Virus record (IMG/VR): IMGVR_UViG_2885633469_000002
Coordinates: 1-64,000 of that record
Length of the DNA stretch: 64,000 bases
Direction: 5' to 3' (one strand)
Source of the DNA: a virus
Taxonomy: Duplodnaviria > Caudoviricetes
Shown: positions 26,515 through 54,918 of the stretch, piece by piece
Layout of the letters: each line of letters begins with the position of its first letter
How positions within the stretch are numbered: position 1 is the stretch's first letter
Translations under genes and position numbers: made by a program
The notes under the pieces: model-generated
What the model was told of the DNA's origin: nothing
Databases searched by the model: none
Seen by the model: only the letters and a program-made list of their open reading frames with translations

Positions 26515-26540
26515 AAAAAAAGAGTAGGCATTACCTACTC
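26515..26540 (-). terminator. intrinsic terminator
   Basis: GAGTAGG/CCTACTC hairpin followed by a T-run on the - strand. Confidence 0.7.
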
Positions 26541-26566
26541 AAAATCATTAAGTTTTATATTAAACT

Positions 26567-27427: not shown

Positions 27428-27818
27428 GGCTTGATATTATTATATCATAGAGTATTAAAAAAAACACTACAAAATATACATTCTGTCACATATTTGTTTG
27501 TTGACAAAGTCGATTTGCAACTTTTTAGAAGATTTCAATAAAACACTATTTTTATTAAATTATTGTGCTGGTTTAAATCTAAAACTAAATTTTAATACAA
27601 TATACCAATATAAAAACATGATTGAATAAATTTTAAAATTATATTTTTTAACAGAATCGATATATTATTTTTACTTATATTTTTTAGTTTTTGATTCACT
27701 TATAAATAAATGAATATTAAAATGTAAATAATAATTAAACATTCATTTCATAAAACAGATAGGGGGTATACCTATCCATTTTATACTTTATAGAAACCCG
27801 ATAACTATGTGTGGTGCT

Positions 27819-28202
27819 TTAATCAAATTCTTTAGTATCTGAGGCTATATTTGATTTTTCTACTATTGGTGTATTATAGAAATTGTTTATAGTTTGTATA
27901 TCATCATCTTTCTTTTTATTGTTATTTAACATATTAGGAAAATCGTGTGATGCAATTGCACTTAATCCAACAAATATACCATTCATAAACATTATGTATA
28001 AATCTTTCACCATAAAGCAATCATTTACTAAATGTCCAAAAATAACAGTTAATATACCTACTATAATTGCTATAAATTTAGTAGGTATATTTTTTACAAA
28101 CTTAATTTCTTTAATTAACTGAGTTAATGTGAAACAAATCATAATGCAACACATAGGTTGAATTAACATTTCCCTAGTAATAAAACCATTCATTATATCC
28201 AT
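27819..28202 (-). CDS. holin
   Basis: Three TM segments, LTQLIKE...IPTKF, NGIFVGLSAIASHD; next to the endolysin. Confidence 0.75.
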   Translation of the reverse strand: MDIMNGFITREMLIQPMCCIMICFTLTQLIKEIKFVKNIPTKFIAIIVGILTVIFGHLVNDCFMVKDLYIMFMNGIFVGLSAIASHDFPNMLNNNKKKDDDIQTINNFYNTPIVEKSNIASDTKEFD

Positions 28203-28243
28203 ATAAACATCTCCTTAATTAAATTATTTTATATTATGATAAT

Positions 28244-29239: not shown

Positions 29240-29274
29240 TTAATCATATCCTTCCTACACTATATTCCTATAAA

Positions 29275-29508
29275 TTATTTAAGCAATCCATACTGAACCA
29301 TATAAAAAAAGAACCCAAGCAAACCTGATGCTCCAAGTCCTATTAACCATTTGATAGCACTTGTTAATCCTTTTATATTCTCACATAAGTTTTTAATCTC
29401 TATTCTAAATTCTCTACCATCCTGTTCTATTTTATCTAATCTTTTATCATGTTCTTTTAATGTATCTGTATGCTCGTTGATTTTCATTTCCATTACTTCA
29501 GATTTCAT
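29275..29508 (-). CDS. xhlA: XhlA-family lysis membrane protein
   Basis: LKEHDKRLDKIEQ...IKNLCE coiled coil plus C-terminal TM (LLGFFFY). Confidence 0.8.
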   Translation of the reverse strand: MKSEVMEMKINEHTDTLKEHDKRLDKIEQDGREFRIEIKNLCENIKGLTSAIKWLIGLGASGLLGFFFYMVQYGLLK

Positions 29509-29582
29509 ATTAATCACCACCATATATTTATTATAATTTTGTACAAAACAAAAACTCCTAATCTTTACCTAATTAGAAGTTT

Positions 29583-29801
29583 TTAAATAACACTATTAAA
29601 ATACTCTTCTGAAACTTGCAACTGTTTCCTAAGTATTTCTTTCCACATATGATATTTTATTTCACCTGTACCTCTTGATACTTTTGTTTTTAATATTTTA
29701 CCTTTGTTACTTTTTTTTCTGTAATAATAATGGTCAGTACTTTTATATAATTCCCAACCGTCCTTATCACAAAATCTTTTTAATTCTCTCCATTTTGGCA
29801 T
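29583..29801 (-). CDS. HicA-family toxin
   Basis: ELKRFC..DGW...DHYYYRK...TKVSRG..EI....W.EIL.KQL.VSEEYF. Confidence 0.75.
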   Translation of the reverse strand: MPKWRELKRFCDKDGWELYKSTDHYYYRKKSNKGKILKTKVSRGTGEIKYHMWKEILRKQLQVSEEYFNSVI

Positions 29802-30259
29802 CTTATTATATCTCTAATTTCATCATCATTAAATTTTTTAAACAGCTTATATAAAAAATCTACTTCCTGCTTTCTTTCTTTATCTCTACACCAATATTCA
29901 GATTCGTTCATATAATCTTCTACATATTCTTTTAATTCATTAATTATAGATTTAATTGCATTCTCAAAATTATCTTCATTCACTACAATATCAAAATCTT
30001 GTAATGATAAAGTTGTACTTCCGTCATTTTCTAAATATTTAATACAATTTAAAGAACAGTTCTTAATACATGAATTAAAATTTTTTATATGCAATTTATT
30101 AGAGAACTTAGGTATATTAATTCTTTTAGATATAGCTGATTCCATATTCTCTCCCCCATTTTGTTTTAATTTATACAATTTTACTTTTATAGGTTTATCT
30201 AAATTAATATTTTTCCATTTCTTTAAGTTCATTTTATCACCCCATATGGCAGAATACAA
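29780..30259 (-). CDS. putative cognate antitoxin (HicB-like)
   Basis: Overlaps the toxin start; E.DGS.TLSL..FDIV.N...E.AI..LKEY.EDY fold; likely start 30231 or 30144. Confidence 0.6.
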   Translation of the reverse strand: MYSAIWGDKMNLKKWKNINLDKPIKVKLYKLKQNGGENMESAISKRINIPKFSNKLHIKNFNSCIKNCSLNCIKYLENDGSTTLSLQDFDIVVNEDNFENAIKSIINELKEYVEDYMNESEYWCRDKERKQEVDFLYKLFKKFNDDEIRDIIRCQNGEN

Positions 30260-39748: not shown

Positions 39749-41212
39749 TTAAATTAATATATTTACATTTATAGTTATATTTTCTATACCAAAGCCGACA
39801 TGTTTAACATTTAATCTAAATACGTCATTAGCTTGGACTTTAAGATGTACTATATTTCCTACATTAGCTTGATACTCACCATAATCAAATATGATTTCTT
39901 TATTTTCTTCACACACACCTGTCCAAGTATCTATACCATGTTGAAAATCCAATTCAGATATTTTTTCTAATTGTATAGATGTGTGTTCTGTGCCAGTGGT
40001 TTGGCAAATTCCTTCAATAGTATTTATTACCCCTTCGTTAGGAAATGTAATTAATACATTTTGAACACCTTGTTTTAGTTTATCTGTTGATAATACAAAT
40101 ACCATTGTCTTTGTATGAACATAATCGGGTAATGCGTTTTTAGCATCCTCTCCTACATAGTTCTTCTGTGCTTTATCTTCTATTTGATTTAATTTTACAT
40201 AATCATCTTTTCTCATGAGTCCATCCATATCTTTTTTTACTAATGGTATTCCACCTTTCATGTTACCTATGTATTTCCATGATACATTATCCCATCTATA
40301 TAAGTTTCCATTGTCCATAGTCATCACTAACCATCCAATATCTGGATTAGGATGTTTAATATCAATCTCCGCAAAGGAATTTACAGGCTCTTTCCATATC
40401 AGTCTAGTATTGAGTCTATCTATCTTAATATTTTCAGTTTCCTCTTTCGCCCTATCTGTTGCATCAATACATTCTTTTGTTTTTTCTATAGACAATTGAG
40501 TTGCTTGATTTGCTTTATCTGTGACGTTAATTGCGTTTTTAGTTGTTATTTCGGTTTTTTCTTTTGCTATAAGTGTTTCATTCTTTACTTTAATAGTTTC
40601 ATCAGTAATCTTCTTACATTCATTAGTTTGCTTCCTCGACAATTCAATATGAACATCAACTTCTCTAATTTTTGACTCTGCTTTTTCAATAAAAGTATTT
40701 ACATAAGCAACAAATTCATCAGTCTTCTGTTGAACAAAAATAGTAAATTCATTTGTCTTTTGTTCAATAAATGTTATTGCTTTTGCCACAGATTCTTTTA
40801 ATTCTTGCTCTTTTTGATAAATAAAATCTATTAATTCTTGTAAATTGTCAACTGCCCATGGGTTAGGACTATGTACATAAATTCTTCCAGCTGGATATTG
40901 AATAATGCCCTTCCCTTTATATTCAATAGTAACCGTCTTCCCATTTTGATTAGGACTAAAAGTTATTTCCCCGTTTGAATAATCCACATAAAACTCATTT
41001 TCAGCCAATACTTTTCTACAATCATATTTCTCTCTGGGAACTTCCACATATTCTTTAATCCTAACCTTATAAGTTATGTCAGGAACTTCATCTAAGCCTG
41101 TCCTTCCATTAATTATTGTATACTGACCTGTTTTTAAAACATAAGGATCATCATCTGTCCCTTTTCTCAATTTAAATCTTACAGCGTCAAAATAATATTT
41201 TAAATTTTTCAT
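39749..41212 (-). CDS. baseplate/fibre protein with coiled coil
   Basis: L.EVPD, FYVDYSNG.I.F, Y.G.G, coiled coil, YRWD..SW, DGLM.K.D..KL..I fibre motif. Confidence 0.65.
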   Translation of the reverse strand: MKNLKYYFDAVRFKLRKGTDDDPYVLKTGQYTIINGRTGLDEVPDITYKVRIKEYVEVPREKYDCRKVLAENEFYVDYSNGEITFSPNQNGKTVTIEYKGKGIIQYPAGRIYVHSPNPWAVDNLQELIDFIYQKEQELKESVAKAITFIEQKTNEFTIFVQQKTDEFVAYVNTFIEKAESKIREVDVHIELSRKQTNECKKITDETIKVKNETLIAKEKTEITTKNAINVTDKANQATQLSIEKTKECIDATDRAKEETENIKIDRLNTRLIWKEPVNSFAEIDIKHPNPDIGWLVMTMDNGNLYRWDNVSWKYIGNMKGGIPLVKKDMDGLMRKDDYVKLNQIEDKAQKNYVGEDAKNALPDYVHTKTMVFVLSTDKLKQGVQNVLITFPNEGVINTIEGICQTTGTEHTSIQLEKISELDFQHGIDTWTGVCEENKEIIFDYGEYQANVGNIVHLKVQANDVFRLNVKHVGFGIENITINVNILI

Positions 41213-41241: not shown

Positions 41242-41379
41242 TTATTCATCTTGAATAGTTTTTAAAGAGTTGACTACATCTACAAACAGTGGAACTTCCT
41301 TCCCCTCTAAAGGAACTCTATTTAAAAACATTTGTAAGTATTGTAAAACTTCTTCGCTTATCTCAATTTTATAATTCAT
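41242..41379 (-). CDS. small tail-associated protein (45 aa)
   Basis: AAGGAG RBS; MNYKIEISEEVLQYLQMFLNRVPLEGKEVPLFVDVVNSLKTIQDE; read by hand. Confidence 0.6.
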   Translation of the reverse strand: MNYKIEISEEVLQYLQMFLNRVPLEGKEVPLFVDVVNSLKTIQDE

Positions 41380-41396
41380 TTAACTCAGCTCCTTCT

Positions 41397-41582
41397 TTAT
41401 TTAAACCAATTTTTGATAATAAATTCTTTATTAAAGAATTGTACTTGAACATTACAATTACATATTAAATTACATTCACAATTTGAGTTGCAATTACAAC
41501 CACAATAATTTAACAAATACCTTTCTTTAATTTCTTTTATTCTTTCTTGCAAATCGTTGTTTAGCTCTAATATCCCTTCCAT
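41397..41582 (-). CDS. Cys-rich peptide B (61 aa), putative radical SAM substrate
   Basis: AGAGGTG RBS and ATG 41582; YCGCNCNSNCECNLICNCN (7 Cys). Confidence 0.7.
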   Translation of the reverse strand: MEGILELNNDLQERIKEIKERYLLNYCGCNCNSNCECNLICNCNVQVQFFNKEFIIKNWFK

Positions 41583-41595
41583 GCTCTCACCTCTT

Positions 41596-42024
41596 TTAGT
41601 TTGAAGACGGATGATAATTACAATTGCAACTACAATAATTACAATTACAGCGACATACATCACAATTACAAAAACAATTTGTGTTACAACCACAATCTTC
41701 TATTTTTACTGCTACACATCTACATACTCTCGCAGGTTTTACATAATCTAATAACTCTCCTAAAGAAACTGTTGATTTAGAGTAATATGATGTAAGAGTA
41801 TTACTTGCACAGGTAGTTTTTCTATAACCGTTATGTAGTTCATTTCCATGGCAATTGCAACCATATACTTTTGAAATCCCTTTTCTTGTGTCAACCAATT
41901 CATTTAGTAAATTTCTTAAATCATTTAAATCTCTGCTTAAATGAGGTTTAGGCTTACTTAAGCTACCTTTTTCTTCTTCTATATATTTTCTAACCCCACC
42001 TAAACTAACATCATTTGTAGGCAT
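41596..42024 (-). CDS. Cys-rich protein A (142 aa), putative radical SAM substrate
   Basis: 16 Cys; C-terminus CRC...DCGCNTNCFCNCDVCRCNCNYCSCNCNY. Confidence 0.8.
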   Translation of the reverse strand: MPTNDVSLGGVRKYIEEEKGSLSKPKPHLSRDLNDLRNLLNELVDTRKGISKVYGCNCHGNELHNGYRKTTCASNTLTSYYSKSTVSLGELLDYVKPARVCRCVAVKIEDCGCNTNCFCNCDVCRCNCNYCSCNCNYHPSSN

Positions 42025-42034
42025 AATTGACCAC

Positions 42035-43303
42035 CTACCCTTTTATTATTTTTAACATCTCATTTTGATTTTTTATTATTTGTTTTTGATTTGTTTTCAT
42101 TTCATCTACTTCAATAAATAAAACCTTCATAGCTTGTGCTAAAACATCTAAACTTTCGTCTATAGTAAAAGAAGCTACCGAATTTTTATCTTGATAAAGA
42201 CTTAATTCAGTAGCTTTCTCTTTCATATATTCACATATTTCATGTTCAACGTGAGCCATTTCACAATAATGTCCTCTTATCTGTTTCTTTATATCACCAT
42301 TTACCATATAATTAGCTCCCAAACACCTATAACAGTTATAACACTCACATTGTCCGCAACCTTCCATCTCTTCATTCTTTAACTTTAAGAATGGTTTTCT
42401 TTTTTCATCGTCTATACCTTCATATAAACTACCTATCCTCATTTCACCTTTAAAATCATTAAAGTAAAAATGATGACATGGGTATATGTCTCCATTAGGA
42501 ATTATCGATATATAAGTTTTACCTGCATTGCAAGGAGGATTTACCCAACTTCTACCTTCTAATAGCTTACTTAATGGACTAAAGTTTTTTAATTCATCTA
42601 TTCTTTTATTTTTTATCATATCATCTAATATGTAATCTGATATTTTTTTTAATTGTTCTCTATATATTCCTACATCATTTATATCCCATTGTTCCTCATG
42701 CACAGGCATAAACCATATTCTTTCGATTCCACAACCTTCTCTAAAGAATTTGTAATTTTCAAATAAATGTGGCAAAGATTGTTTATTTAAACAACCATGA
42801 ACACTGAATTGTTGCGGACTATCTTTAAAAAGTTCTTTATATATCTTTATATTTTTTTCTACATATTTAAAACTACCCTCCCCATTTTCTCTAACCCTAT
42901 ACATATCATGTGTTTCTCTATTTCCATCACATGATAACTGTACCCCAAAATTTAATTTGTCTTTGTATTTAATTATTAATTTCTTAAGTTTCTCACTTAC
43001 ATATACACCATTTGTAATTAATCCTATCTGACATTGGATACCTGTTTCATTTTGTCTTTTAAAAGCATGAGTTAATAAAATATCAATTTTTTCAGGAACT
43101 AAAGTTGGTTCACCACCAAAAATACTAATATTAATTGATTTTTTTCCTGCCTTTTTAGCATTATTTAGCAAATAATCTATCCCATCTGTTATTACTTCGT
43201 CTTTTATTACCTCATGTCCAAACTTGTGTACAAAACAATACTTACACCTATTATTGCAATTTGTTGTCATTATAAAACTTGCATCTGTTGGTAAAACGTT
43301 CAC
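42035..43303 (-). CDS. radical SAM/SPASM-domain maturase
   Basis: CNNRCKYC, FGGEP, ITNG, SCDG...HD..R; SPASM CNAG...GDIYPCHHF...CGQC....CYRC...YC. Likely GTG start 43303 after AGAAAGGGA. Confidence 0.92.
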   Translation of the reverse strand: MNVLPTDASFIMTTNCNNRCKYCFVHKFGHEVIKDEVITDGIDYLLNNAKKAGKKSINISIFGGEPTLVPEKIDILLTHAFKRQNETGIQCQIGLITNGVYVSEKLKKLIIKYKDKLNFGVQLSCDGNRETHDMYRVRENGEGSFKYVEKNIKIYKELFKDSPQQFSVHGCLNKQSLPHLFENYKFFREGCGIERIWFMPVHEEQWDINDVGIYREQLKKISDYILDDMIKNKRIDELKNFSPLSKLLEGRSWVNPPCNAGKTYISIIPNGDIYPCHHFYFNDFKGEMRIGSLYEGIDDEKRKPFLKLKNEEMEGCGQCECYNCYRCLGANYMVNGDIKKQIRGHYCEMAHVEHEICEYMKEKATELSLYQDKNSVASFTIDESLDVLAQAMKVLFIEVDEMKTNQKQIIKNQNEMLKIIKG

Positions 43304-43320
43304 TTTATCAATCCCTTTCT

Positions 43321-46300
43321 TTACTTTAAAATAATACAATCAAATTGGGGGTTAGAACCACCAGAATTATATATCGTAACTGAATTTGAACTTTTTTCTA
43401 TGCTTATTTCTCCTACGTATGTCAAAGAACTTTTGCCTATAGGAGTTACAGAAACAACATAGTCTAATGTTCCTAAATTATGTGTTATTGTTGTTCCATT
43501 CATTCCTGAAAATCTAGACGTTGCTTTAAATAAAGCAGGGAGTCTGTATGTGTAATCTGCTTCTCCTTGAATTTTACCTTTTTTAAACCATGCAATTCTA
43601 AGATTTCCTAAATCTGTCACATTTAAGGTTATTCCACCTTTGCCTAAACTCACACTACTAAGCCTTCTATTTGACATAATAGTAGACCCTGTACTTTGAT
43701 TTAACTCAAAAGCACTACCATTCTTATCATACATACCAAAATTATTCTCGTTATTGGCTGTTATAAAAAATTGTTGTGAATTATCGTAAGAATTAAACTG
43801 CAACAACCCACCTGTTTTTCTATCTCCTGATACTACATCTGACATATTATCTGTTGAAGATTTTGCTTTAATCATTATTTTTACATTATTATCTTCCCCA
43901 TATAATTTAACCACTCCTTGATTCAACTCCGCATCTTGAGAAGACATAAACAATTTAGGCTGTTCCAACTTATTATTTAACCTAATAGTCCCCCCTGTAT
44001 CATCACTTCCAGTTAATTCAACTATTTTTTTACTTTCATTATTTTTAATCCTTATTATCCCCATATCATTCAAGGATTGAGTCCCCATCTCAATCCTTTC
44101 TTTTGTCATATCACCATTATATAGTTTCAGAAATCCGCCCGTATATTTATAATCAGGAGCAGAGCCTAAAAAAGCATTTATATTTCCATCCCAATCATTT
44201 AATAATAATTTTCCACCATTACCTTCATCTTTATATAAATCTGCTAACCAGATTTTATTTTTAGAATTATTATATCTAAATACTCTAAACCTTCCATTAG
44301 CATCAACTTCACCATCTATATTAACATTAAATACATCGTCTCCATTTTGATTATTTATCCATATACATCCATTATCTATTCTCAATCCCTTGTTATCTAG
44401 AACCGAATGTGTATTTAAAATATGAAATGATTTAGCCCATACAGAACCATCATTTCCGTCTAAAAAAATCACATCCTCCCAAGGATATCCTTTCCCATTT
44501 CTTTTTTGAAGTTTAATGCCAACTTTAGGATTTAAAAAAATTCTATTTTTATCTTTGTTGCCTTCTAAAGATAAATCCATATTTATAGCTTTCATATGAT
44601 TTTTATCAACTAAAAAAGAAGATTCTCCTTCATCGTTCATATTTGTTATAATAAGTTTATTTGAGCCTACCAACTTGCCATAAATTTGTTCAGCTACGTT
44701 TCCATATGGTGTGACAGCTGTTGAAACTGTTTTCCAATTATCTTTAGTCATAACAAGGCAATTATTTACAATTCTTAATTGTTCGTCATCAGAAAACATA
44801 TCTTTCATATGTATTCCTCTTTCGTCTATCCTTATATTTTGATTCCTAGCACTTAATATCCTATTTTTCGCACTATCTAATACATTACTCATTATTTGAC
44901 TTACTAAATCAGTGTTTCTCTCACTTAAGTTCCATATAGGTTTATACATATCAACTGTATTAGCCACATCATTTACGTTTTTCATTAAGTCTGCTAAGTA
45001 ACCTGCTGTATTATCTGCATCTTCCTTATTGCTAATTGTAATGTTTAAACTATTTTTATCTATTTCATGTGTTATATTTATAATCCTTACTTTATATTCG
45101 GTATTCATTCTATCTGAATATATATGAATAAAATCTCCTAATTTCAATTTATTCCAATCGTGTTGACATTCAACTAAATTCAAAAAATTCACTATATCTA
45201 AGCTTAATTCTATAATTGGCTGAGACAAATTATCTAATGCGTTTTTACCTGCTGATAGTAAATCTTTATTATCATAATAATTTTCATTTTTCCACGTATC
45301 TTCTTTTATAAAATCATCTAACACATTCAATTGTGATGTAGTAAAATTATTGCTTTTTTTAAGGCTTTCACCTAATTGTTTTATACTATTATTATTTTGA
45401 TTTATGTCTAAAACAACATTCTTAATCTCTTCTTCTTTTTTTTTCATTTTATTTTTTATGTCATCTCTTATTTTATTTAATTCTGTTAAATCTTTAGCTT
45501 TATCAAAATCAGATAAATTTACTTTTAATTCCTCTGATATATCTAAAGTACCGTCATTTACTTTTGATATAGGCTCATCTTTATTTTTTTTGTTAAATTG
45601 TATTACGTTATCTATATTATCTTGTGCAATCTCATATTTCACCTTTAAATCAACTAAATCATTTTCTAATTTTGCAACTCTTGAATCTAAAGTATGTCTT
45701 TGTTTTAATAAATTATAAAATATAGGTGTTTTTTCTTCTATTAACACATCATATTTATTCAAAGCATCTAATAAATCTTGTGGCATGTATTTTAATGTTC
45801 TATAATATGAAAAGTTTTCTATATAAGGCATACCAGTAGGATTTATATCTGTTATGTTTAAGTTATCTTTTCCATATATATTTAACCTTGTTATTAAATC
45901 ATCATCTTTCACATGCCTACTTATTTTTCTTGCATAATTTTGTTTTGAAATATATAATCCCTTATCCTCAGTTATATTATCTATATGATAAATATTTATA
46001 ATTTTACTTAAACTATCAAATTGTAAAACACAGTCAAAGGATTTCTGGATGTCTTCTCTAAGAAAGCTTAGCCAATCTTGTTCAGATATATTAAATACTC
46101 TATACTTACGATGATTTTGCCCATCGCTTCTATCTTCCCTTACTTCAGGATCAACATATCCTATTTCCCATGATGTTTCATTTTCTAATATATTTAATAT
46201 TCCATCACCTGTTTCCGATATTATCTTTATACTCACTTCTATTTTATAGTTAATACTATCAGTTACTTTATAAATTACATCTATATTTTCTAATTCGTGT

Positions 46301-46914
46301 AATTTATCTTTTGAGTTCCATTTATATGTATTAATTTCTGTATCGTTATGGTCATAAACTTTAATAAATAAGTTTTTGCCTTCCTCCATAATAAATGAAT
46401 TTGTATAAGTTACATAATTAATATCGTCAAAAGAATACTTTATTTTGTTTACTAATGTCTCTGAACCATCTCTGTATAATTGTCTTGTCCCTACAAAATT
46501 AACTAATTTTCTTTTAGATAGGTTTATTTCTCTACTATAACAATGAATACTTTTTACATATTTCTCATCGTCATCATCTTCGTACTCATTGATTTTGAAC
46601 ATATATTTATTATTTACTTTAACTAACATTCCATCTTTAATAGCATCAATGTTGGGGTTTTTTATTTGCTCATGTTGCCTTTTGATATAATATGGTATTT
46701 TAAAACTTAGTTCATAAGTATCTTTAAAAGGAGTTGTAAAAGATATATCATAGGCATCTTTTAACATAGATATTTCAGTATCATCTTGTCTACATAAAAT
46801 TAATTGAAAATCTTCTTTTGCGGTTTTTAAATCTCTATTTATTTTCCCTAATTCAAATTTATTTTTTACTAGACATTCATCTACCCTTTCGCCATTTAGA
46901 TATACATAACTCAT
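43321..46914 (-). CDS. Tal / tail spike (prophage tail endopeptidase-like)
   Basis: Follows Dit; ITRL.IYGKD.L.I..INPTG..YIENFSYY, LKLGD, AEQIYGKL, C-terminal ITHNLG. Confidence 0.8.
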   Translation of the reverse strand: MSYVYLNGERVDECLVKNKFELGKINRDLKTAKEDFQLILCRQDDTEISMLKDAYDISFTTPFKDTYELSFKIPYYIKRQHEQIKNPNIDAIKDGMLVKVNNKYMFKINEYEDDDDEKYVKSIHCYSREINLSKRKLVNFVGTRQLYRDGSETLVNKIKYSFDDINYVTYTNSFIMEEGKNLFIKVYDHNDTEINTYKWNSKDKLHELENIDVIYKVTDSINYKIEVSIKIISETGDGILNILENETSWEIGYVDPEVREDRSDGQNHRKYRVFNISEQDWLSFLREDIQKSFDCVLQFDSLSKIINIYHIDNITEDKGLYISKQNYARKISRHVKDDDLITRLNIYGKDNLNITDINPTGMPYIENFSYYRTLKYMPQDLLDALNKYDVLIEEKTPIFYNLLKQRHTLDSRVAKLENDLVDLKVKYEIAQDNIDNVIQFNKKNKDEPISKVNDGTLDISEELKVNLSDFDKAKDLTELNKIRDDIKNKMKKKEEEIKNVVLDINQNNNSIKQLGESLKKSNNFTTSQLNVLDDFIKEDTWKNENYYDNKDLLSAGKNALDNLSQPIIELSLDIVNFLNLVECQHDWNKLKLGDFIHIYSDRMNTEYKVRIINITHEIDKNSLNITISNKEDADNTAGYLADLMKNVNDVANTVDMYKPIWNLSERNTDLVSQIMSNVLDSAKNRILSARNQNIRIDERGIHMKDMFSDDEQLRIVNNCLVMTKDNWKTVSTAVTPYGNVAEQIYGKLVGSNKLIITNMNDEGESSFLVDKNHMKAINMDLSLEGNKDKNRIFLNPKVGIKLQKRNGKGYPWEDVIFLDGNDGSVWAKSFHILNTHSVLDNKGLRIDNGCIWINNQNGDDVFNVNIDGEVDANGRFRVFRYNNSKNKIWLADLYKDEGNGGKLLLNDWDGNINAFLGSAPDYKYTGGFLKLYNGDMTKERIEMGTQSLNDMGIIRIKNNESKKIVELTGSDDTGGTIRLNNKLEQPKLFMSSQDAELNQGVVKLYGEDNNVKIMIKAKSSTDNMSDVVSGDRKTGGLLQFNSYDNSQQFFITANNENNFGMYDKNGSAFELNQSTGSTIMSNRRLSSVSLGKGGITLNVTDLGNLRIAWFKKGKIQGEADYTYRLPALFKATSRFSGMNGTTITHNLGTLDYVVSVTPIGKSSLTYVGEISIEKSSNSVTIYNSGGSNPQFDCIILK

Positions 46915-46930
46915 AAAAAACACCTCCTTT

Positions 46931-47704
46931 TTATATTGCTATAGGATAACAACATCTAATTGATACTCTTACATCCCCTCTAATTTCTAGTAAATTATAT
47001 CCTCTTACTAACCTAATCCAGTTTTTATTAAAATTATCTAATCTATACGTATTAGGTAGGTTACTTTTAATTCTTTGCATATTATTGTCAACATATATAA
47101 TTTCATTTTTTATTAAATTGTCAATCTTAAAGATTTCACCAGCATTACTTAAATTTTCTATTTCTATACTTGTATCTCCAACCATTTCTATTTCTATTTC
47201 AGGATAATAATATTTTTTAACATTACTTAAATTTTCTATTTCTAATATATTTGAATTAGAAATAGAAAAATCCCATGTATATATATATGTTGGAGAATAA
47301 GCATAAGGGCTGTTACATTCCATTGTTAATGTTATATAACCCTGCATTGCTCCAGTATCAAATCTTCTTGCATCCCCGATTAATTTACAATAATAAATAA
47401 CTTCTGGATTGTCTAGTGATATAAATGGCTTATAGTCATCTTGAAATAACCATTTAACTACATCTTTTCTAGTTTTATAATCCCACAATAAATCATCATC
47501 AGTTATTTTTGCTAAAGTAATTTTGAACTTTAATGGGTCTGTATTAAAACCATAGGAGTATATGTTATCATTAATTTTGTCTATTCTATTCTCTCTTTTG
47601 TATCCAAAAATAGATTCTATCATATCTGTATTTGTATCTACCAATGTTAATCCCATATCAGAACCTTTTATCCCATCGTACATAAATTGTGTACTTATAA
47701 ACAT
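46931..47704 (-). CDS. distal tail protein (Dit)
   Basis: Immediately after TMP; F.YDGI, WLFQDDYKP, GYITLTMECNSPYAYS, W.RL..GYN.L. Confidence 0.85.
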   Translation of the reverse strand: MFISTQFMYDGIKGSDMGLTLVDTNTDMIESIFGYKRENRIDKINDNIYSYGFNTDPLKFKITLAKITDDDLLWDYKTRKDVVKWLFQDDYKPFISLDNPEVIYYCKLIGDARRFDTGAMQGYITLTMECNSPYAYSPTYIYTWDFSISNSNILEIENLSNVKKYYYPEIEIEMVGDTSIEIENLSNAGEIFKIDNLIKNEIIYVDNNMQRIKSNLPNTYRLDNFNKNWIRLVRGYNLLEIRGDVRVSIRCCYPIAI

Positions 47705-47740: not shown

Positions 47741-50700
47741 TTATTTATATATACCTCTTTTGTTGTATGCTTTTCTTAATTCCTTTAATACGTCATTTTT
47801 AAGAACACTTTTTAATTTTGGAAATATATTCTCGTCAACATTTCCTTCAACATTTAATAAATTCCTTATTTTTATAACTCCATTACCATTTTCTGGCATA
47901 GAGTTTGTATTAATTTTAGGAAACATACACGCTAAATTATCTCCATTAGGTAAATTCTTAACTACGCTGTATAACTTCTTTGCTTGACTACTATTAAAAA
48001 TTACTTCTGAATTTGATTGACTGCCATGAACCATTGCTAATCCAGAATAGTCCATTACTCCACCTTCACTAAATTGTGGTACTCCTCCATGACTAGCCCA
48101 TGCGATAATCCTCTCCAAAGTTTCTTTTGAAGTTACACCACCTAATCTAATCACCCCTATTGCTCTCAATATATCATCTGAAACAGGAGATACTCCTTTT
48201 TCACCTAAAACAATATCCCCCTCTCTTAAAATTTTTTCTAATTCTTCCGAAGATAAATGTTGCGTATTAACAAATTTATACCCCATAGCAGATAACCACT
48301 TTTGAGCATTTTTTAAATCTTCGCCCCAACCATAAACAGTATTTTTTATTTCCTTAACATCTCCTGCGATCATTTTTTTTTCATAATCAGCATATCCAGA
48401 AACTATTTTATCAGTCTCATATCTATCATTTCCTTTTAACCTTCCTGCTCCATTTAAATTTTTATTATTTAATGCATTTCCAATAACTAAATCATTTTTA
48501 TCTAATTTTATTTTGTCTAATTCATTTTTAGATAGTTTAGTTATATCAATTACTTCATACCCTAATTCTGATAAATATTTTTGTGCAATTATATAATCGT
48601 TTATTTTATTATTTCCATCAGACTGAGCATATACTTTTTTATCTTCACTTTTTGTAATAGAATTGTTTTTTTTAGGCTTTTCTATCTCTTTAATCTTACT
48701 TAAAATATTATCTAAATTCTGTGCAGTATCTATCGCCTTTTGTAAATTATCAATTAAGTTGGATTTAATTTTTGTTCCAATTAAACTTAATCCTTCTCCC
48801 CATTCATCTTCATATTTTAATATAGCATCTGTTAAATTCATCATTTCTCCATTTATATATTTAATTTGATTTCTAAATATAGCTTTTCTTGCTTCTGAAT
48901 ATAAATTTTCTTTCTGCATTAGTTTTTTATAATACTCTTCAGTATTTTTTAATTCTTTATCAAGTCTCTCTTTTGTATCCTCATATTTTTTATTTTCTGC
49001 TTTATTCTTTTCTTCATATTCTTTTTGTATATCTTCTAATTTATCATTAAGATTCTCTTTTCTTAAATCTATTTCTCTTTTATGTCTAAAATCATCTATT
49101 TCTTCTTGTTTTTTATCTATTTGTTCTTTTAAACTATTCTTTTTTACTTTACCCTCAAGTGTGTCTACAAGCATCCAAGAATTGTATTCATATTGCAATT
49201 TTAACTTTTCACTTATTAAAGTATTTAATTGTTTTTCATAATTGTCTGTTTTTTCATTTTTATCGAATTCTTTTAATTGTGATTTTATTATTTCTTCTCT
49301 TACTTTCTTTTCTTCATTTAAATTATCAATTGATTTTTTATGTCTTTTCTCTTCTAAATCTTTTTTTTCATTGTATTGTTTTTTATATTCATCTAATTCA
49401 GTCTCATATCTTTTCTTAATTATTTCTATTATTTTTTGTTCTAAACTCTTTAAATTATCCAATTCGCTTTGTAAATTATTTTTTAATTCTTCGTTGTTTT
49501 GTTTCATAGATTTTGCAATATCTCTTATTTTTTCATTATATTCTTTGGCTTTATCATTAAGGAAATTCCATTCATAAGTATTCTCTTTTAACAAATCTCT
49601 TTCTGCTAATAGTTCTATTTTCGCCTTTTGAATATAAATAATATATTTTTGTTGTTCGTCAACCTTTTTCGATAAAAATCTTGTCTTGTCTTTCTCATAG
49701 AATATGTCTTTTACATTTAAAAGGTCTATTTTATCTTGCATTTCAGTTATTTCACTATCAAATTCTTTAAAATATCTATCATCAAATTTAATTTTAAATT
49801 CCCATTTAGTTTGAAACGCATCTTGTAAAGCCTTTGTCATCTTCTCAATTTCACCTACAGTATCTTGTAGGTCAAATCTCATTTTAACAATTTGGTCTGA
49901 AGTATGTCCACCATACCATATTTGTTTTTGCATGTACTTTTGTTTTTCTAATAATACTCTATTTTTTTCTTTAATTTCATTTGTGTAATTATCAAAATTC
50001 TTAAAACTATCAACAACACTTGTAGACCATTGTTCAGCTCTGTCCTTATAGATAGATGCATTTACATTAGTTCTTTTTATTTTATCATCAAAAATTCCGA
50101 TTGTTGATTCATATTTATCCACTTTTAATTGGTTAAATTGGTCTTTTAATCCAATTAATTGTTGCTTTAAATCCTCTGCTTTATTCCATGCTCTATCTGC
50201 CCTTTCTTCTGGTGACACGTCTTTTACAGAGTTTTTATTTTGATAAGATATCTTACCAGAAGAATAACCTCCACCTGATAATTCATTATAAATAGATTTT
50301 ACAGTAGGTATCCAATTTTTATTCAATCCATTTGGGTCATTACTTGCACCTATTGGAGCATATTTTGCACCTATTTGCTCTATTGTTGTTAATCCTTGAT
50401 TAAAATAAAGATTCTTTAAATTTCTTGCTGAAAATTCTATTCCCTCAGCAATAGAATTAAAATGTTTTATTGTTTTCCAATTATTTTCCCAATCCATAAT
50501 ACCCGATGGATTATTATGATTTCTAATCGCTGGAGAAGTACCTCTGCCAGATTCAAACATAGAAATTGATGCCAGTAAATATGGGTCTATTTCATATTTA
50601 CTTCCTGCATTAACAAAGTCTTGTCCATGACCTCTTAAAACTCCTTGTAACTTATTATCTAAATGTGTATTGCTATAACTACTTGAAGCCACACCCGACC

Positions 50701-53700
50701 TAGCACCCTCAACATTTTTATAACTACTTGCTAATTGATTATTCTTTTTAATTTCTTGTTCAGTCAATTTAATTTGTTGCTTGATTAGATTGCCTTTTTT
50801 GTCTAACGCCTTTATATAGTCCCATGAATTTTTATATAATTTACTATTAGAAGAATTTAACTTATCTAACTCGGTTTTTAAAGCTTTTATAGAATTGGCA
50901 TATTCATCTGTAGCATATTTAGCTTTCTCAGTGGATTTTGTAGTATCATCTAACGAAGGTATGTATTCATTATTATTTGTTGATATTATTTTGTCTAAAT
51001 TTTTTAAAGCTTTTTCATAAGATAAGTCAATTTTATCTATTTCATCTTTTAGTTCATTTTCTTTCCCTTTTTTTTTATTAGCTATATCCGTAAATATACT
51101 CGCAGAAGTAGGACCGCCAATTAACTTCGACCCTATATCTATCACTGAAGGGTTTTTTTCTGCTTCTTTAGCTTTATCCATATAAAAATTATATTTTTCT
51201 TGTAACACTTCAATTTGTTTTTTAGCTTGTACATATGTCATTTTGGTTATGCCCTTTTGAATCATTGCATCTTGTTTAGACGCTTCTAACTTTGCCTTCG
51301 TTAAATCTTGAACTGTTAATTTTTTATTACCTAGTATTTTTATCTCATTTTTAATTAAATTCATATTTTGTATACTAGAAAGCCCAGCCTCGTCCTCCAC
51401 TGTAATCAAACCTGAAATAATAGGCTTTAGTTTATTTGAAATATCTGACATACGTTCTTTTTCTTCTATATTTTTATTTTTTATATCATTTAATTCTAAA
51501 TACTCATTTCCAAGTTCTTTAATTGTATCCTTATATTGCAATTCAACTTCGTTAGTATTTTGTATACCTTCAATAATTTCATGATTTTGCAAATTGTTTG
51601 TAGCTTCTGTCACCTTGTATATCTCACCAGTATATTCGTTAAAAGCTACTCCTGCGTCAGTTAGAATTTTTTTTTGGTCATCTATCTTTTTATTAAAGTT
51701 GTTTAAATCGCTTTCTGCCATTTTGAATATCATCCAATTGGAGACATTCCATGAATCTCCTTTATCCCAGTTACTCTTTTTTTCATTTATTTCTTTTTCT
51801 AATTTTTTTCTTTCTTTAAGTAATTCTTTATATTCATTTTGCTTTTCTTTTAATTCATCTACAGTTGATCCAATTTCAATTTTATCGCCATCTTTTAATG
51901 CCTGATTTAATTTATCATAGCTTCTTTTAACCGAATCAGTTGATTCTTTTAATTCTTTTTGATACTGTATATGTTTGTGTAATTTATATGTAGCTACACC
52001 TAAAATTGCTATAAACCATGTTAAAGGATTTTTCAAAAGAGCTATAGTTACTCCAGTTATACCTTTACGTAATGCAATAAATGTTTGTGTCAAAGCTGTT
52101 ATTATACCATTTTGTTTGGCTGTATACAGAAAACCTTTTAAAACCCCTTTTAATTTGTTTAATCCTTTAGTGATATAAGACGTGTGCTTAAATAAAGTTA
52201 CCCATGCAAATCCCAACCCAAGTACAGCAACACCTGATTTTTTTGATGTAGACGTTATTACATTAAAAGTATTAATAATTTCAGTACCAGCTTTAATAAA
52301 ATTATTTATAGTATCGGATTGAATTAAATTTCTCCATAAATTTTCTAATGCTCTTTTGAAATCATTAATTTTTGCTTCATTTGATTGACTGTAAAAACTT
52401 TCAAACTTCTGCTTAGCAGAACCACTAGCGTCTCCAACTTTTTCTTGTAACTCAGCAACTTTATCAAGATTTTGCATCAATACTAAAAAGTTTTCTCTTT
52501 GCCTTGTACCTGCGAGACTTTTAGCTATATCACTTTTTTGTAAATCGTTTAAATTACCCCATTTATTTCCTAAATCTTCAATTACTGTTGAAAAACTTTT
52601 AAAATGAGTAGCATCTTTTCTAATTGCAACACCAATTTTATTAAGAGACCTTTCAACATTTGAAAGAGGCTGATTTTCAGCATCAAATTTTTTTCCTTGC
52701 TTAATATCCTGATATCTTGCAAAAATACTTTTAAAAGACTCTCCAATACTTTCCGCAGATTTCCTAGTTGTAGAACTAACTACTCCTATATATTCTGAAA
52801 GCCCTTCCATTGACACTCCTGCCATTTGTGCGGAACTCGAAGAACGTTTCATTCCTTCTGCTAATTCTGCAAAACTAGTAGCCGCATTGTTATCAATCGT
52901 ACTTAGAGTATCTACTACTTTCATTGTTTCTTTGGCTTCCATACGAAATCCATTAGTAATAGCAATCAGTTGTTCAGACACATCTTTTGTACTTTGTCCA
53001 GACAGTTTTGCTCCTATTGTAGAACTTTCCAATAGTTTTCCTGTTTCCTCTACATTTCTTCCAGCTCTAAAAAATTCAACTGAGCCTTCCATTATTTCTT
53101 TAGTAGTAGTATGCAATACATCCGCCAACTTACTGTATTTATCGGTTAGTTCCTCTATCTCAGCCTTGTTCATATTTGTCACCATACCAACATCAGTTTC
53201 TACTTTATTTAAGTCATTTATAAAAGAAACCCCTTCTTTTAATTTTCTTAAAACCCCAAATAAAGCTGTTCCTGCTATAGTAAACCTTACCAAACGCTCA
53301 ATACTAGTTTTCATTCTCTCTGCAAACGTAGTCTGTTTTTTGTTTATATTCTCAATTCCTGTAGCCATGGAATAAGTTGACTTAGTAGTATTATCTATAG
53401 TCATCTTATATTTACTTAATCTTTTTCCGCCTTCATTTATATTCACATTAACTTGTTTTATTTTGTTACCCATACTATCTACACTATTAGCTATATTCGA
53501 AATACTAGCATTTAGTCCATATGTTTTTTTTACAAATTTTTCAATATCTTTAAATGAAGAATTTATATTAATTTTTCCATTTACTTTATTACCTAATTTA
53601 ATAATTCTTTGTTGTTCTTTTAATTTTGATTCATATGCATCTAATTGCTTATTAATTTCATTAAAATCTTTAACTATATTTGAAGATTTAGGGTCTAGCG

Positions 53701-54859: not shown

Positions 54860-54885
54860 AAAAATCCTCCTTTCTTTATTTTGAT

Positions 54886-54918
54886 AAAATAAAAAGACAG
54901 GCATTGATACCTGTCTTA
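54886..54918 (-). terminator. intrinsic terminator between moron and TMP
   Basis: AAGACAGG/CCTGTCTT hairpin followed by a T-run on the - strand. Confidence 0.7.

What the first reader, a model, noticed from the sequence alone, without database searches (positions are those of the whole stretch)
41242..43339. RiPP-like radical SAM/SPASM + Cys-repeat module hard-wired into the tail operon
Seen: between Tal and the baseplate gene lie a complete rSAM/SPASM enzyme, a 142-aa protein ending CGCNTNCFCNCDVCRCNCNYCSCNCNY (16 Cys), a 61-aa peptide with CGCNCNSNCECNLICNCN (7 Cys) and a 45-aa ORF. They are tightly packed with their own RBSs, and I saw no promoter or terminator separating them from the tail genes. 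The two Cys-rich ORFs share a CGCNxxxxCN-type motif. No transporter, protease or obvious N-terminal RRE/PqqD domain is present. Established: SPASM rSAMs install thioether (sacti-/ranthipeptide) or cyclophane crosslinks on Cys-rich precursors. Inference: the phage crosslinks or metal-loads its own tail components, or makes a non-exported modified peptide, during late infection. I know of no characterised example in a virion module.
Basis: partly seen in the sequence, partly recalled or inferred. Interest (0 to 1): 0.88.

Follow-up and report, generated by a model that had tools for sequence, protein, structure and literature searches.

The report
Phage tail radical-SAM Cys-repeat protein cassette
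A prophage of an anaerobic bacterium carries, in the middle of its tail genes, a radical-SAM enzyme and two cysteine-repeat proteins from a small phage-only family that no paper I searched describes; the enzyme probably staples the proteins with covalent cross-links, possibly as part of the tail.

Summary
On the minus strand, directly after the Tal-like gene, lie an rSAM/SPASM gene (42035-43303), a 142-aa protein with 16 Cys, a 61-aa protein with 7 Cys and a 45-aa ORF. Each has its own RBS, and no terminator separates them from the tail genes.

The enzyme belongs to a distinct clade. It is nearest PapB, CXXX-repeat and SCIFF maturases but scores below every NCBIfam cut-off, and it lacks an RRE.

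The 142-aa protein is not a peptide precursor. It belongs to an undescribed family:
- a folded N-terminal domain of about 95 aa;
- 5 to 37 CxC[N/D]x(R)(T) repeats;
- an RCxCNxxxxF end.

The family has 109 cluster representatives among 1.84 billion proteins.

In 27 of 33 related loci the enzyme sits beside such a Cys-repeat gene, and 25 of 33 also have a second, SPASM-less rSAM that this window lacks. In 14 of 18 genome or viral locus groups the cassette lies beside tail-fibre, baseplate or Tal genes. I recognised no exporter or protease among the neighbours I scanned.

Best reading: enzymatic thioether stapling of a tail-associated protein. The chemistry and virion location are inferred, not shown. 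This scan has flagged analogous cassettes on other DNA.

The parts
43321..46923 (-). Tal-like minor tail protein (1200 aa). Context: the last recognisable tail gene before the cassette.
   Evidence: phrog_6211 'minor tail protein', E = 1.6e-193. It follows a Dit-like gene (PF20753/PF20195) and the tape-measure gene. It is 51% identical to the syntenic gene in L001/L002.
42035..43303 (-). Radical SAM/SPASM enzyme ('rSAM1'), 422 aa from GTG 43303 (434 aa if from TTG 43339).
   Evidence: Pfam Radical_SAM and SPASM. Best NCBIfam hits are PapB at 184 bits (cut-off 340), TIGR04115 at 148 (350) and TIGR03974 at 111 (425). Best PDB hit is CteB 5WGG, E = 2e-21, aligned from CteB residue 104. 48 close homologues at E <= 1e-54. 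GGEP, CX3CX2C and most SPASM Cys are invariant or nearly so in the family.
41596..42024 (-). Cys-repeat protein, 142 aa, 16 Cys: conserved N-terminal domain (residues ~1-100) plus a CxC[N/D] core (residues 103-137).
   Evidence: Aligns with 17 neighbours of homologous rSAMs. tblastn hits to L001, L002 and L015 neighbours. AF2 gives three helices at pLDDT 80-94 and a core below pLDDT 50. 9 CxC units, 7 followed by N/D/Q/E.
41397..41582 (-). Second Cys-repeat protein, 61 aa, 7 Cys: short N-terminal region that looks helical (my reading), 4 CxCN units and the family's C-terminal CxCNxxxxF end.
   Evidence: Has its own RBS (AGAGGTGA) and ATG. It is the only one of 711 window ORFs hit by a profile of the family's C-terminal 40 residues (E = 0.0026, weak). 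A counterpart exists in L001/L002.
41242..41379 (-). 45-aa conserved small protein of the cassette ('o45'), function unknown.
   Evidence: jackhmmer finds homologues right after the second rSAM in L001/L002, L005 and L006/L026 (E = 4e-16 to 4e-22). Alignment. Weak phrog_18977 hit.
39749..41212 (-). 487-aa conserved phage protein that resumes the tail module (context). About 11 kb of further tail-module and receptor-binding-like genes follow before the endolysin at 28244-29239.
   Evidence: phrog_11315, E = 3.5e-114. 55% identical and syntenic in L001/L002. Amidase_2 + SH3 endolysin and a weak, below-cut-off holin-family match (26.2 vs 29.2 bits) downstream.

Best explanation
This is a phage-encoded protein-maturation cassette expressed with the tail genes. 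I commit to the following mechanism.

1. The four genes are transcribed late as part of the tail operon.
2. The rSAM/SPASM enzyme has one radical-SAM [4Fe-4S] cluster plus two auxiliary clusters. It recognises the Cys-repeat proteins and uses 5'-deoxyadenosyl radical chemistry to install intramolecular thioether (ranthionine-type) bridges. The likely bridge runs from a Cys sulfur to the beta-carbon of the Asn/Asp that follows each CxC unit, so that C-x-C-[N/D] equals C-X-X-[N/D].
3. No protease or exporter is encoded, so the N-terminal domain stays attached. The stapled 142-aa and 61-aa proteins remain in the infected cell and are built into, or onto, the distal tail as a small rigid fibre, spike or decoration.
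4. This phage carries a reduced form of the cassette. Relatives have longer CxC[N/D]xRT repeat proteins and a second, SPASM-less rSAM that probably acts on the Arg/Thr part of the repeat. Here the Arg is gone and so is the second enzyme.

Shown: gene order, family membership, co-occurrence and tail context.
Inferred: enzyme-substrate pairing (about 0.85), thioether chemistry (about 0.6), virion location (about 0.5).
For: Operon structure: RBSs before every gene, and no minus-strand terminator from 39 to 47 kb.

Enzyme class: the nearest families are all Cys-thioether or related peptide maturases. PapB scores 184 bits, CXXX-repeat maturase 148, SCIFF maturase 111 and QhpD-like 105. CteB is the best solved relative. 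The cluster-binding Cys are conserved in 39 family members.

Pairing: after clustering the related enzymes at 90% identity, 27 of 33 locus groups have a Cys-repeat ORF on the same strand in the fetched stretch. 23 of 33 have the N-domain type. All 6 groups without one sit on contigs cut within 395 nt of the enzyme gene.

Substrate family: the N-domain profile finds 109 representatives among 1.84 billion proteins, and 99 of the 109 are Cys-rich with at least 3 CxC. Over 367 CxC units, the next residue is N 40%, D 17%, Q 10% or E 8%; Arg follows at +3 in 57% and Thr at +4 in 36%. AF2 folds the N-domain confidently and leaves the Cys core unconfident in both models, as expected if the core's structure depends on modification.

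Precedent: CrpC/CrpA of Methanococcus voltae is an rSAM-SPASM that installs ranthionines on a large Cys-rich protein. That protein has a conserved N-terminus and C-X-X-Q/D repeats (PMC13692751, abstract and passages).

Tail context:
- Synteny TMP-Dit-Tal-rSAM in L001/L002 and L006.
- Baseplate_J two or three genes upstream in L003, L004, L014 and L015, and Sipho_Gp37 in L020.
- Tail-fibre PHROG hits directly upstream in L003, L007, L008, L012, L015 and L022, and nearby in L016, L021 and L024.
- A tail-fibre-like gene inside the cassette in L012.
- In the window, about 11 kb of further tail-module and receptor-binding-like genes lie between the cassette and the endolysin.

Fibre-like architecture: conserved ends with a repeat number varying from 5 to 37. 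One relative (P0204) carries a ~330-aa non-Cys C-terminal domain after the repeats.

Arg and second rSAM: 19 of 20 groups with the second rSAM have Arg in at least 33% of CxCxxR positions. The three groups without it (window, L008, L024) have 0/13, 1/16 and 0/10.
Against: - There is no experimental datum on any member. No cultured phage in the GenBank phage collection has the family, so no virion proteome exists to consult.
- The enzyme fails every curated family cut-off, so the reaction type is extrapolated.
- 16% of CxC units are followed by Val, so Asn/Asp cannot be the only acceptor.
- In L003, L004 and L024 the cassette sits at the junction between tail fibre and endolysin. That junction is, from my recall, also a classic site for non-structural cargo genes.
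- The N-domain has no detectable similarity to any tail-protein fold: Foldseek against PDB and BFVD gave no hit with E <= 0.001, and the PDB profile search gave nothing better than E = 0.22.
- PHROGs and Pfam gave nothing for the Cys proteins.
- The Arg/second-rSAM link rests on only two independent lineages. L024 groups with L007/L008, and the window groups with L001. L001/L002 keep the second rSAM without Arg.
- The 61-aa peptide's link to the family is weak (13 bits).
Confidence: 0.5

Rival explanations
1. Non-structural cargo. The enzyme matures the Cys-repeat proteins as above, but the products are not virion parts. They act inside the infected cell or after lysis, for example as an anti-competitor RiPP-like protein released by lysis, an inhibitor of a host function, or a redox or metal buffer during late infection.
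For: No signal peptide, protease or exporter is needed if lysis releases the product. In L003, L004 and L024 the cassette directly precedes the endolysin. The N-domain resembles no known tail fold. The module is gained and lost sporadically: 3 of 295 scored genomes of the host's family have it, in 2 of 59 genera.
Against: In the window, L001/L002, L006, L012, L016, L020 and L021 the cassette lies between tail genes, not at the module's edge. In the window there is no terminator or above-chance promoter around it. Sizes up to 494 aa with 81 Cys, and a variable repeat number between conserved ends, look structural rather than like a bioactive peptide.
Confidence: 0.28
2. Metal or iron-sulfur reading. 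The CxC-rich proteins are metallothionein-like metal or Fe-S binders that are not cross-linked. The rSAM either has another substrate, such as a tail protein, or uses them as cluster donors.
For: CxC spacing is typical of metal-thiolate proteins (my recall). CrpA's operon is induced on pyrite, and its authors raise metal binding as a possibility (PMC13692751, discussion passage). The AF2 core is unstructured without ligands.
Against: The enzyme's nearest families are all peptide or protein Cys-crosslinking or related maturases. The polar residue after CxC is conserved (N/D/Q/E in 75% of 367 units), as are Arg-Thr and a dedicated N-domain. These point to an enzyme-recognised repeat rather than a simple chelator. 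The one-to-one genomic pairing (27 of 33 groups) fits enzyme and substrate.
Confidence: 0.12
3. Decaying remnant. In this particular phage the cassette is on its way out, with the second rSAM lost and the target short and split in two, and it no longer has a function.
For: The second rSAM is absent from the window and from the whole genome; the best match to it elsewhere is 27% identical. The target has 9 + 4 CxC units against up to 37 in relatives. The window's enzyme has the longest terminal branch in its two-member clade, 1.08 against 0.52.
Against: All four ORFs are intact with strong RBSs. All cluster Cys and the GGEP motif are kept. An 82%-identical full-length enzyme exists elsewhere (P0002). 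Short N-domain forms of 120-145 aa make up several separate clusters (for example P0169 at 57% and P0178 at 42% identity). The same split into two ORFs is kept in L001/L002 at only ~30% identity. Two other lineages also work with one rSAM (L008, L024).
Confidence: 0.1

Closest known systems
CrpC/CrpA of Methanococcus voltae (PMC13692751; I saw the abstract, outline and searched passages)
   Same: An rSAM enzyme with a SPASM domain acts on a whole Cys-rich protein rather than a short peptide. The substrate has a conserved N-terminal region followed by C-terminal Cys repeats containing C-X-X-Q/D. Here C-x-C-[N/D/Q/E] gives the same C-X-X-acceptor spacing. No protease or exporter logic is needed.
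   Different: The host is archaeal and there is no viral context. CrpC has a predicted RRE (section title), and the phage enzyme has none. The repeat is 17 residues rather than about 7-11. I did not compare the sequences directly because no CrpC sequence was at hand.
PapB/PapA (freyrasin) ranthipeptide system, NCBIfam NF047865
   Same: It is the best-scoring curated family: 184 bits over profile positions 6-329 of 330. It is a compact rSAM/SPASM without a long N-terminal extension, acting on a repeated Cys-acceptor motif. That the bridge is Cys to Asp beta-carbon is from my recall.
   Different: The score is far below the 340-bit cut-off. PapA is a short peptide with CX3D units (recall). Here the substrates are proteins with a folded N-domain and CxC[N/D] units, in a phage tail operon.
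CteB/SCIFF (TIGR03974; PDB 5WGG)
   Same: It is the closest solved structure (E = 2e-21). Both are Clostridia-associated thioether maturases with two auxiliary clusters.
   Different: CteB's first ~100 residues (I recall these as its RRE) have no counterpart here. The score is 111 bits against a 425 cut-off. SCIFF is a ~45-aa six-Cys peptide (recall).
CXXX-repeat target / maturase system (TIGR04115, TIGR04119; Pfam PF27846 as named by the Atlas)
   Same: It is a bioinformatically defined pairing of an rSAM maturase with a Cys-repeat target. The window enzyme hits both maturase models (148 and 91 bits). The Atlas's nearest cluster to a family member is a 100%-viral cluster; 53% of its members carry PF27846 (score 0.84, a lead only). 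A true CXXX-repeat protein with its own PapB-like rSAM sits 4 kb upstream of the CxC cassette in L012.
   Different: Both scores are below cut-off (350 and 150). The spacing is CxC, not a Cys at every fourth residue. The ~95-aa N-domain and the RCxCNxxxxF end are specific to this family. As far as my searches show, the CXXX system itself is not experimentally characterised.
QhpD/QhpC (quinohaemoprotein amine dehydrogenase) and NxxcB/NxxcA (streptococcal RaS-RiPP)
   Same: QhpD puts Cys-Asp and Cys-Glu thioethers into a protein subunit that stays part of a larger assembly (passage in PMC13692751); TIGR03906 scores 105 bits.
   Different: Neither is viral, and neither has CxC repeats or this N-domain. 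Membership is not met: 105 bits against a 453 cut-off. NxxcB was not tested here.

Membership tests
PapB-family ranthipeptide maturase (NF047865) | Whole-protein score at or above the curated cut-off (340 bits) | tested here: not met
   184.1 bits.
PapB-family ranthipeptide maturase (NF047865) | Radical-SAM CX3CX2C plus a seven-Cys SPASM domain | tested here: met
   C28/C32/C35 are nearly invariant. The SPASM cysteines were read from the sequence: C270-x12-G-x4-C288, the CGQCECYNCYRC block and C359; C270, C288, C331, C339 and C359 are invariant alignment columns. Pfam SPASM, E = 2.1e-5.
PapB-family ranthipeptide maturase (NF047865) | Short precursor with CX3D units (recalled definition) | tested here: not met
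   The neighbours are 142-aa and 61-aa proteins with CxC[N/D] units.
CXXX-repeat maturase/target system (TIGR04115, TIGR04119) | Scores at or above the cut-offs (350 and 150 bits) | tested here: not met
   148.1 and 91.2 bits.
CXXX-repeat maturase/target system (TIGR04115, TIGR04119) | Target with a Cys at every fourth residue | tested here: not met
   The spacing is C-x-C. No NCBIfam target model is hit at E <= 0.01 by any of the 9 Cys-rich family proteins scanned. The CXXX-type protein of L012 also hit no target model, so this scan had no positive control.
SCIFF maturase CteB/ScfB (TIGR03974) | Score at or above 425 bits, and an N-terminal RRE domain | tested here: not met
   110.7 bits. The alignment to 5WGG starts at CteB residue 104 and query residue 13.
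RiPP in the strict sense | Leader removed by a protease and product exported by cluster-encoded genes | tested here: not met
   No peptidase or transporter domain in the 20 window ORFs scanned with Pfam. Neighbours in related loci that gave hits are tail, lysis or further rSAM genes. Many neighbours have no annotation, so this is not exhaustive.
rSAM-SPASM maturation of large Cys-rich proteins (CrpC/CrpA type) | Adjacent Cys-rich protein with a conserved N-terminal region and C-terminal C-X-X-[Q/D]-type repeats | tested here: met
   N-domain alignment. 75% of 367 CxC units are followed by N/D/Q/E. The motif definition comes from PMC13692751.
rSAM-SPASM maturation of large Cys-rich proteins (CrpC/CrpA type) | Demonstrated ranthionine formation | not testable with these tools
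   Needs anaerobic reconstitution and MS.
New family defined here: N-domain / CxC[N/D]xRT repeat protein with paired rSAMs | N-terminal ~95-aa domain, CxC repeats and an adjacent clade-specific rSAM/SPASM | tested here: met
   Window protein against L001/L002/L015 neighbours: E = 4e-10, 3.5e-11 and 2e-5. Alignment. Enzyme clade supported 100/99 against outgroups.
New family defined here: N-domain / CxC[N/D]xRT repeat protein with paired rSAMs | Second, SPASM-less rSAM (~300 aa) and Arg-Thr in the repeat | tested here: not met
   Absent from the window and from the genome. 0 of 13 CxC units have Arg at +3. The window is a reduced variant.
Phage tail fibre / virion structural protein | Encoded within the tail module | tested here: met
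Phage tail fibre / virion structural protein | Present in virions; oligomeric fibre fold | not testable with these tools
No fold match in PDB or BFVD. No cultured phage carries the family in the phage collection.

The most novel reading that the evidence does not exclude
Phages of strict anaerobes build part of their host-contacting tail apparatus from a new kind of protein. It is a rod or spike made of CxC[N/D]xRT repeats that is covalently 'laddered' by thioether bridges. One to three phage-encoded radical-SAM enzymes install the bridges during assembly. This would be the first enzymatically cross-linked virion component made with RiPP chemistry, with division of labour between the SPASM enzyme (Cys to Asn/Asp) and the SPASM-less enzyme (the Arg/Thr part of the repeat).
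Probability: 0.4. Interest if true: 0.88.

Novelty: new variant of a known kind. Interest (0 to 1): 0.74.

Why it matters
rSAM/SPASM thioether chemistry is known from small secreted peptides and, very recently, from one archaeal Cys-rich protein. A phage-only family in which this chemistry is wired into tail operons would extend it to virus-particle construction. It would also give structural virology a new covalent stabilisation principle, alongside HK97-type isopeptide chainmail.

It would define a compact, testable enzyme-substrate pair (422 aa plus 142 and 61 aa) for studying RRE-independent substrate recognition.

It would explain why phages of anaerobes carry otherwise puzzling radical-SAM genes.

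If the product is instead a lysis-released modified protein, that would be a new class of phage-borne RiPP-like cargo.

Tried and rejected
- Programmed frameshift joining the 142-aa ORF to the 98-aa ORF: rejected. The overlap is only the alternate frame of the TGT/AAT repeats, which reads as a Val/Ile run. The 61-aa ORF has its own RBS and ATG. The same two-ORF split is kept in L001/L002.
- Homology between the two Cys ORFs: BLASTP E = 0.6. The N-domain profile does not hit the 61-aa ORF. Only the C-terminal-end profile hits it, and weakly.
- Fold of the N-domain: Foldseek against PDB and BFVD gave nothing at E <= 0.001. The PDB profile search gave nothing better than E = 0.22.
- Pfam, NCBIfam and PHROGs gave no family for any Cys-repeat protein.
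- The Atlas search on the extra C-terminal domain of P0204 gave no usable hit. The Atlas hit for L020's protein scored 0.84 and is a lead only.
- Cultured phages: tblastn of the enzyme, the 142-aa protein and L020's pair against 50,697 phage records gave only rSAMs below 30% identity and no N-domain protein. A single-protein scan of viral contigs found nothing; the alignment-based scans did.
- Literature: six full-text searches found no description of a phage rSAM plus Cys-repeat tail cassette. PMC9723712 only remarks that tail spikes of some archaeal viruses are Cys-rich. The library lacks most subscription journals, and supplements were not consulted. The Haft & Basu 2011 paper that I recalled could not be opened, so whether it mentions phage context for CXXX-repeat systems is unchecked.
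- Expression: no sequencing run was listed for the stretch, so no RNA holder is listed.
- Tail context could not be shown for L005 (contig too short), L023 and L027 (tested neighbours gave no tail hit) or L025 (not tested).
- The Arg/second-rSAM correlation is kept only as a suggestion. The tree shows just two independent lineages.

Full report
1. WHAT IS THERE

The window is about 25% G+C. From about 25 kb to 64 kb it carries a minus-strand phage late operon. The gene order is:
- tape measure (47741-54904);
- Dit-like gene (46931-47704; PF20753/PF20195);
- a 1200-aa Tal-like minor tail protein (43321-46923; phrog_6211, E = 1.6e-193);
- the four genes of the finding;
- five conserved phage genes (phrog_11315, 11814, 11178, 30732, 11333; the last carries a CBM96 domain);
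- an array of five genes noted by another reader as receptor-binding-like;
- a PHD-like protein, an Amidase_2-SH3 endolysin, a weak (below cut-off) holin-family match and two tyrosine recombinases.

The window lies on contig C26 of a 3.28-Mb, 30-contig bacterial genome.

The junctions, read base by base, show a Shine-Dalgarno sequence before each of the four genes and before the next gene. The enzyme most likely starts at GTG 43303, giving 422 aa, which agrees with the database gene call P0001. No terminator-like hairpin lies on the minus strand between 39 and 47 kb. Promoter-like sites are no more frequent than in shuffled sequence. The Cys counts (16 of 142 and 7 of 61) and the quoted C-terminal strings are correct.

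2. THE ENZYME

Pfam finds Radical_SAM and SPASM. Against NCBIfam the best hits are all Cys-crosslinking or related maturases, and all are far below their cut-offs:

| Model | Bits | Cut-off |
|---|---|---|
| PapB | 184 | 340 |
| CXXX-repeat maturase TIGR04115 | 148 | 350 |
| SCIFF maturase | 111 | 425 |
| QhpD-like | 105 | 453 |
| TIGR04119 | 91 | 150 |

The closest solved structure is CteB (5WGG, E = 2e-21). The alignment starts at CteB residue 104, so the N-terminal recognition domain of CteB has no counterpart here.

A search of 5.8 billion proteins returned 48 homologues at E <= 1e-54, nearly all unnamed metagenome proteins. Below them, scores fall to generic SCIFF-type maturases. In an alignment of 39 of these, the GGEP motif and most of the SPASM cysteines are invariant, and CX3CX2C is nearly so. 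In a tree the clade separates from the nearest other rSAMs with 100/99 support, and the window's enzyme pairs with that of Clostridium mobile MSJ-11 (97/97).

3. THE CYS PROTEINS BELONG TO A DEFINED, UNDESCRIBED FAMILY

I fetched loci around relatives of the enzyme from species-representative genomes, IMG/VR and JGI metagenomes. The gene next to the enzyme is almost always a Cys-rich protein of 139-494 aa. The family has three parts:
- Eighteen of these proteins, including the window's 142-aa protein, align over an N-terminal domain of about 95 residues. It reads roughly SL..LK, KGGY, L..LK.L...M...R, C..H, SLG.
- After the domain come 5 to 37 CxC units. Over 367 units the consensus is C-[TSD]-C-[N40 D17 V16 Q10 E8 %]-[S/T/A]-R(57%)-T(36%).
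- About half of the representatives (52 of 109) end in C.C[N/D]....[F/Y], most often as RC[S/A]CN....F (my reading of the tails printed).

A profile of the N-domain, run against 1.84 billion representatives, finds 109 proteins at E <= 0.001 and 48 at E <= 1e-10. Of the 109, 99 are Cys-rich with at least 3 CxC; most of the other ten are short fragments or outliers. The domain begins within the first ten residues in nearly all hits.

AlphaFold2 with family alignments folds the N-domain confidently as three helices:
- window protein: pLDDT 80-94;
- L020 protein: residues 1-80 at pLDDT about 78-96.

It leaves the Cys core at pLDDT 33-54. Neither fold search nor PDB profile search finds a relative. 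No Pfam, NCBIfam or PHROG model matches any member.

The window's 142-aa protein has the N-domain and 9 CxC units but lacks the canonical end. The 61-aa peptide has 4 CxCN units and ends ...CNCNVQVQF. A profile of the family's last 40 residues hits that ORF alone among 711 window ORFs, but weakly (E = 0.0026, 13 bits). The syntenic prophages L001/L002 have the same two-ORF arrangement. The pair therefore looks like a canonical protein divided in two. That is an inference. The two window proteins are not significantly similar to each other.

4. THE CASSETTE AND ITS VARIANTS

I searched all fetched loci with profiles for the enzyme, the N-domain and the gene that usually follows, then grouped the enzymes at 90% identity. 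Of 33 locus groups outside the window:
- 27 have a Cys-repeat ORF on the same strand;
- 23 have the N-domain type;
- 25 have a second radical-SAM gene of about 300 aa.

All 6 groups without a Cys-repeat ORF are on contigs cut within 395 nt of the enzyme gene.

The second rSAM matches only the first ~210 positions of the PapB model, so it has no SPASM domain. L016 and L021 add a third rSAM; L016's is HemN/HemW-like.

The window has no second rSAM, and neither does the rest of its genome; the best match elsewhere is 27% identical. L008 and L024 also lack it.

The 45-aa ORF is a real cassette member. Homologues follow the second rSAM in L001/L002, L005 and L006.

One pattern is suggestive. In 19 of 20 groups with the second rSAM, Arg occupies at least a third of the CxCxxR positions. 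In the three groups without it the counts are 0/13 (window), 1/16 (L008) and 0/10 (L024). The exception is L001/L002, which keep the second rSAM with 0/5 Arg. The tree shows only two independent lineages behind this, so I offer it as a hypothesis: the second enzyme works on the Arg/Thr part of the repeat.

5. WHERE THE CASSETTE SITS

L001/L002 (Clostridium mobile and a Clostridiaceae MAG) are syntenic with the window over about 15 kb: TMP, Dit (43%), Tal (51%), enzyme (44%), Cys protein (30%), then the five downstream genes (44-76%). L006 (an Izimaplasma MAG) also has TMP-Dit-Tal-enzyme.

Other loci have quite different, myovirus-type tails:
- Baseplate_J lies two or three genes upstream in L003, L004, L014 and L015, and L020 has Sipho_Gp37.
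- The gene directly upstream hits tail-fibre or tail-protein PHROGs in L003, L007, L008, L012, L015 and L022.
- L016, L021 and L024 have tail-fibre genes within 5 kb.
- L012 has a tail-fibre-like gene inside the cassette.
- In L003, L004 and L024 an endolysin follows the cassette.

That is 14 of 18 genome or viral locus groups with tail evidence. L005 is too short, L025 was not tested, and L023 and L027 gave no tail hits.

All 8 family loci found in genomes come from Bacillota or Izimaplasma; I take these to be anaerobes, which is my inference from their names. Within the host's family, 3 of 295 scored genomes (2 of 59 genera) have the N-domain gene, as expected for a mobile element. No record in the GenBank phage collection has it.

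6. MECHANISM

The pairing of enzyme and Cys protein is strongly supported by co-occurrence.

The chemistry is extrapolated from the nearest families and from one close functional precedent. CrpC of Methanococcus voltae is an rSAM-SPASM that installs ranthionines on CrpA, a large Cys-rich protein with a conserved N-terminus and C-X-X-Q/D repeats (PMC13692751). The same paper recounts that QhpD makes Cys-Asp/Glu thioethers in a protein subunit. C-x-C-[N/D/Q/E] has the same C-X-X-acceptor spacing. From recall, NxxcB shows that Asn can accept. I therefore favour Cys-to-Asn/Asp beta-thioethers, with the second Cys of each unit either bridging elsewhere or free.

Val follows CxC in 16% of units, so this cannot be the whole story.

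Since no protease or exporter is seen, the N-domain probably stays on. It could serve both for enzyme recognition and for docking.

Three things favour a structural role:
- the tail position across unrelated tail types;
- the fibre-like architecture (conserved ends, variable repeat number);
- a relative with an extra C-terminal domain (P0204).

Nothing proves it. The main rival is a non-virion modified protein that acts in the cell or after lysis.

7. COMPARISON AND NOVELTY

The cassette works like the CrpC/CrpA, PapB/PapA and QhpD/QhpC systems, but it fails the membership tests of every curated family (see Membership tests).

Six full-text searches found no description of it. The library lacks most subscription journals.

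This scan has already noted analogous rSAM plus Cys-repeat cassettes beside tail fibres on other DNA, including CXXX-type, Asn-Cys-type and others. One first-reader note covers this same CxCxxR family in another genome (e1-6326895). Those notes are unchecked AI notes. What I tested myself agrees with them.

I class the finding as a new variant of a known kind: rSAM/SPASM maturation of Cys-rich proteins. If the product is a virion part, the biological context would be new.

8. VERDICT

My estimates are:
- enzyme-substrate pairing about 0.85;
- thioether chemistry about 0.6;
- tail-associated product about 0.5.

Interest is 0.74.

Noticed in passing
L012:5365-7343 (same in L013): The same large viral contig carries a second, different system 4 kb upstream of the CxC cassette. 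It pairs a PapB-like rSAM/SPASM (418 aa, 228 bits to NF047865) with a 241-aa protein that has a Cys at every fourth residue over about 95 residues (a CXXX repeat).
   Followed up: partly
L016:12929-13975 and L021:13789-14916: A third radical-SAM gene follows the second rSAM in these cassettes. L016's resembles HemN/HemW/ChuW-type enzymes (77 bits to NF006067, 70 to hemN_rel).
   Followed up: partly
L006:9983-11479 (same DNA in L026 and L038): In the Izimaplasma-associated locus the SPASM enzyme is split into two ORFs of 192 and 285 aa by a frame change with a TAA stop near 10585. This is either a broken gene or an assembly error. The 494-aa, 81-Cys target next to it is intact.
   Followed up: partly
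L021:9983-12307: Here the SPASM enzyme ORF is 774 aa, about 330 residues longer than in other members. The extension was not analysed.
   Followed up: no
L046:612-1433, L047:1001-1822, L049:915-1730; also L023:4990-5874 and L025:1040-2011: These are Cys-repeat (CxCxxRT) proteins that lack the usual N-domain. One set starts with a different ~55-aa N-terminus that hits phrog_25859 (unknown function). The other set starts directly with repeats.
   Followed up: partly
proteins P0204 (612 aa) and P0172 (384 aa): These are fusion forms of the family. P0204 has the N-domain and repeats followed by a ~330-aa Tyr/Asn-rich C-terminal domain. P0172 has a 165-aa extension before the N-domain. Neither extra domain matched Pfam or PHROGs.
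   Followed up: partly
L027:1522-5815: Three consecutive Cys-repeat genes (560, 325 and 531 aa, with 55, 35 and 57 Cys) lie about 4 kb upstream of the enzyme pair. The first has a Gly/Tyr/Thr-rich N-terminus instead of the N-domain.
   Followed up: no
window 41599-41693 (-): The 98-aa ORF's first 37 codons read as a Val/Ile-rich, transmembrane-like run. This is only the alternate frame of the Cys/Asn codon repeats of the 142-aa gene and is not a real feature.
   Followed up: yes
window 25319-30259 (-): The end of the late arm holds a PHD-like antitoxin-domain protein (29780-30259), an Amidase_2+SH3 endolysin (28244-29239), a weak, below-cut-off holin-family match (27819-28202) and two tyrosine recombinase genes (26567-27427 and 25319-26338).
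   Followed up: no
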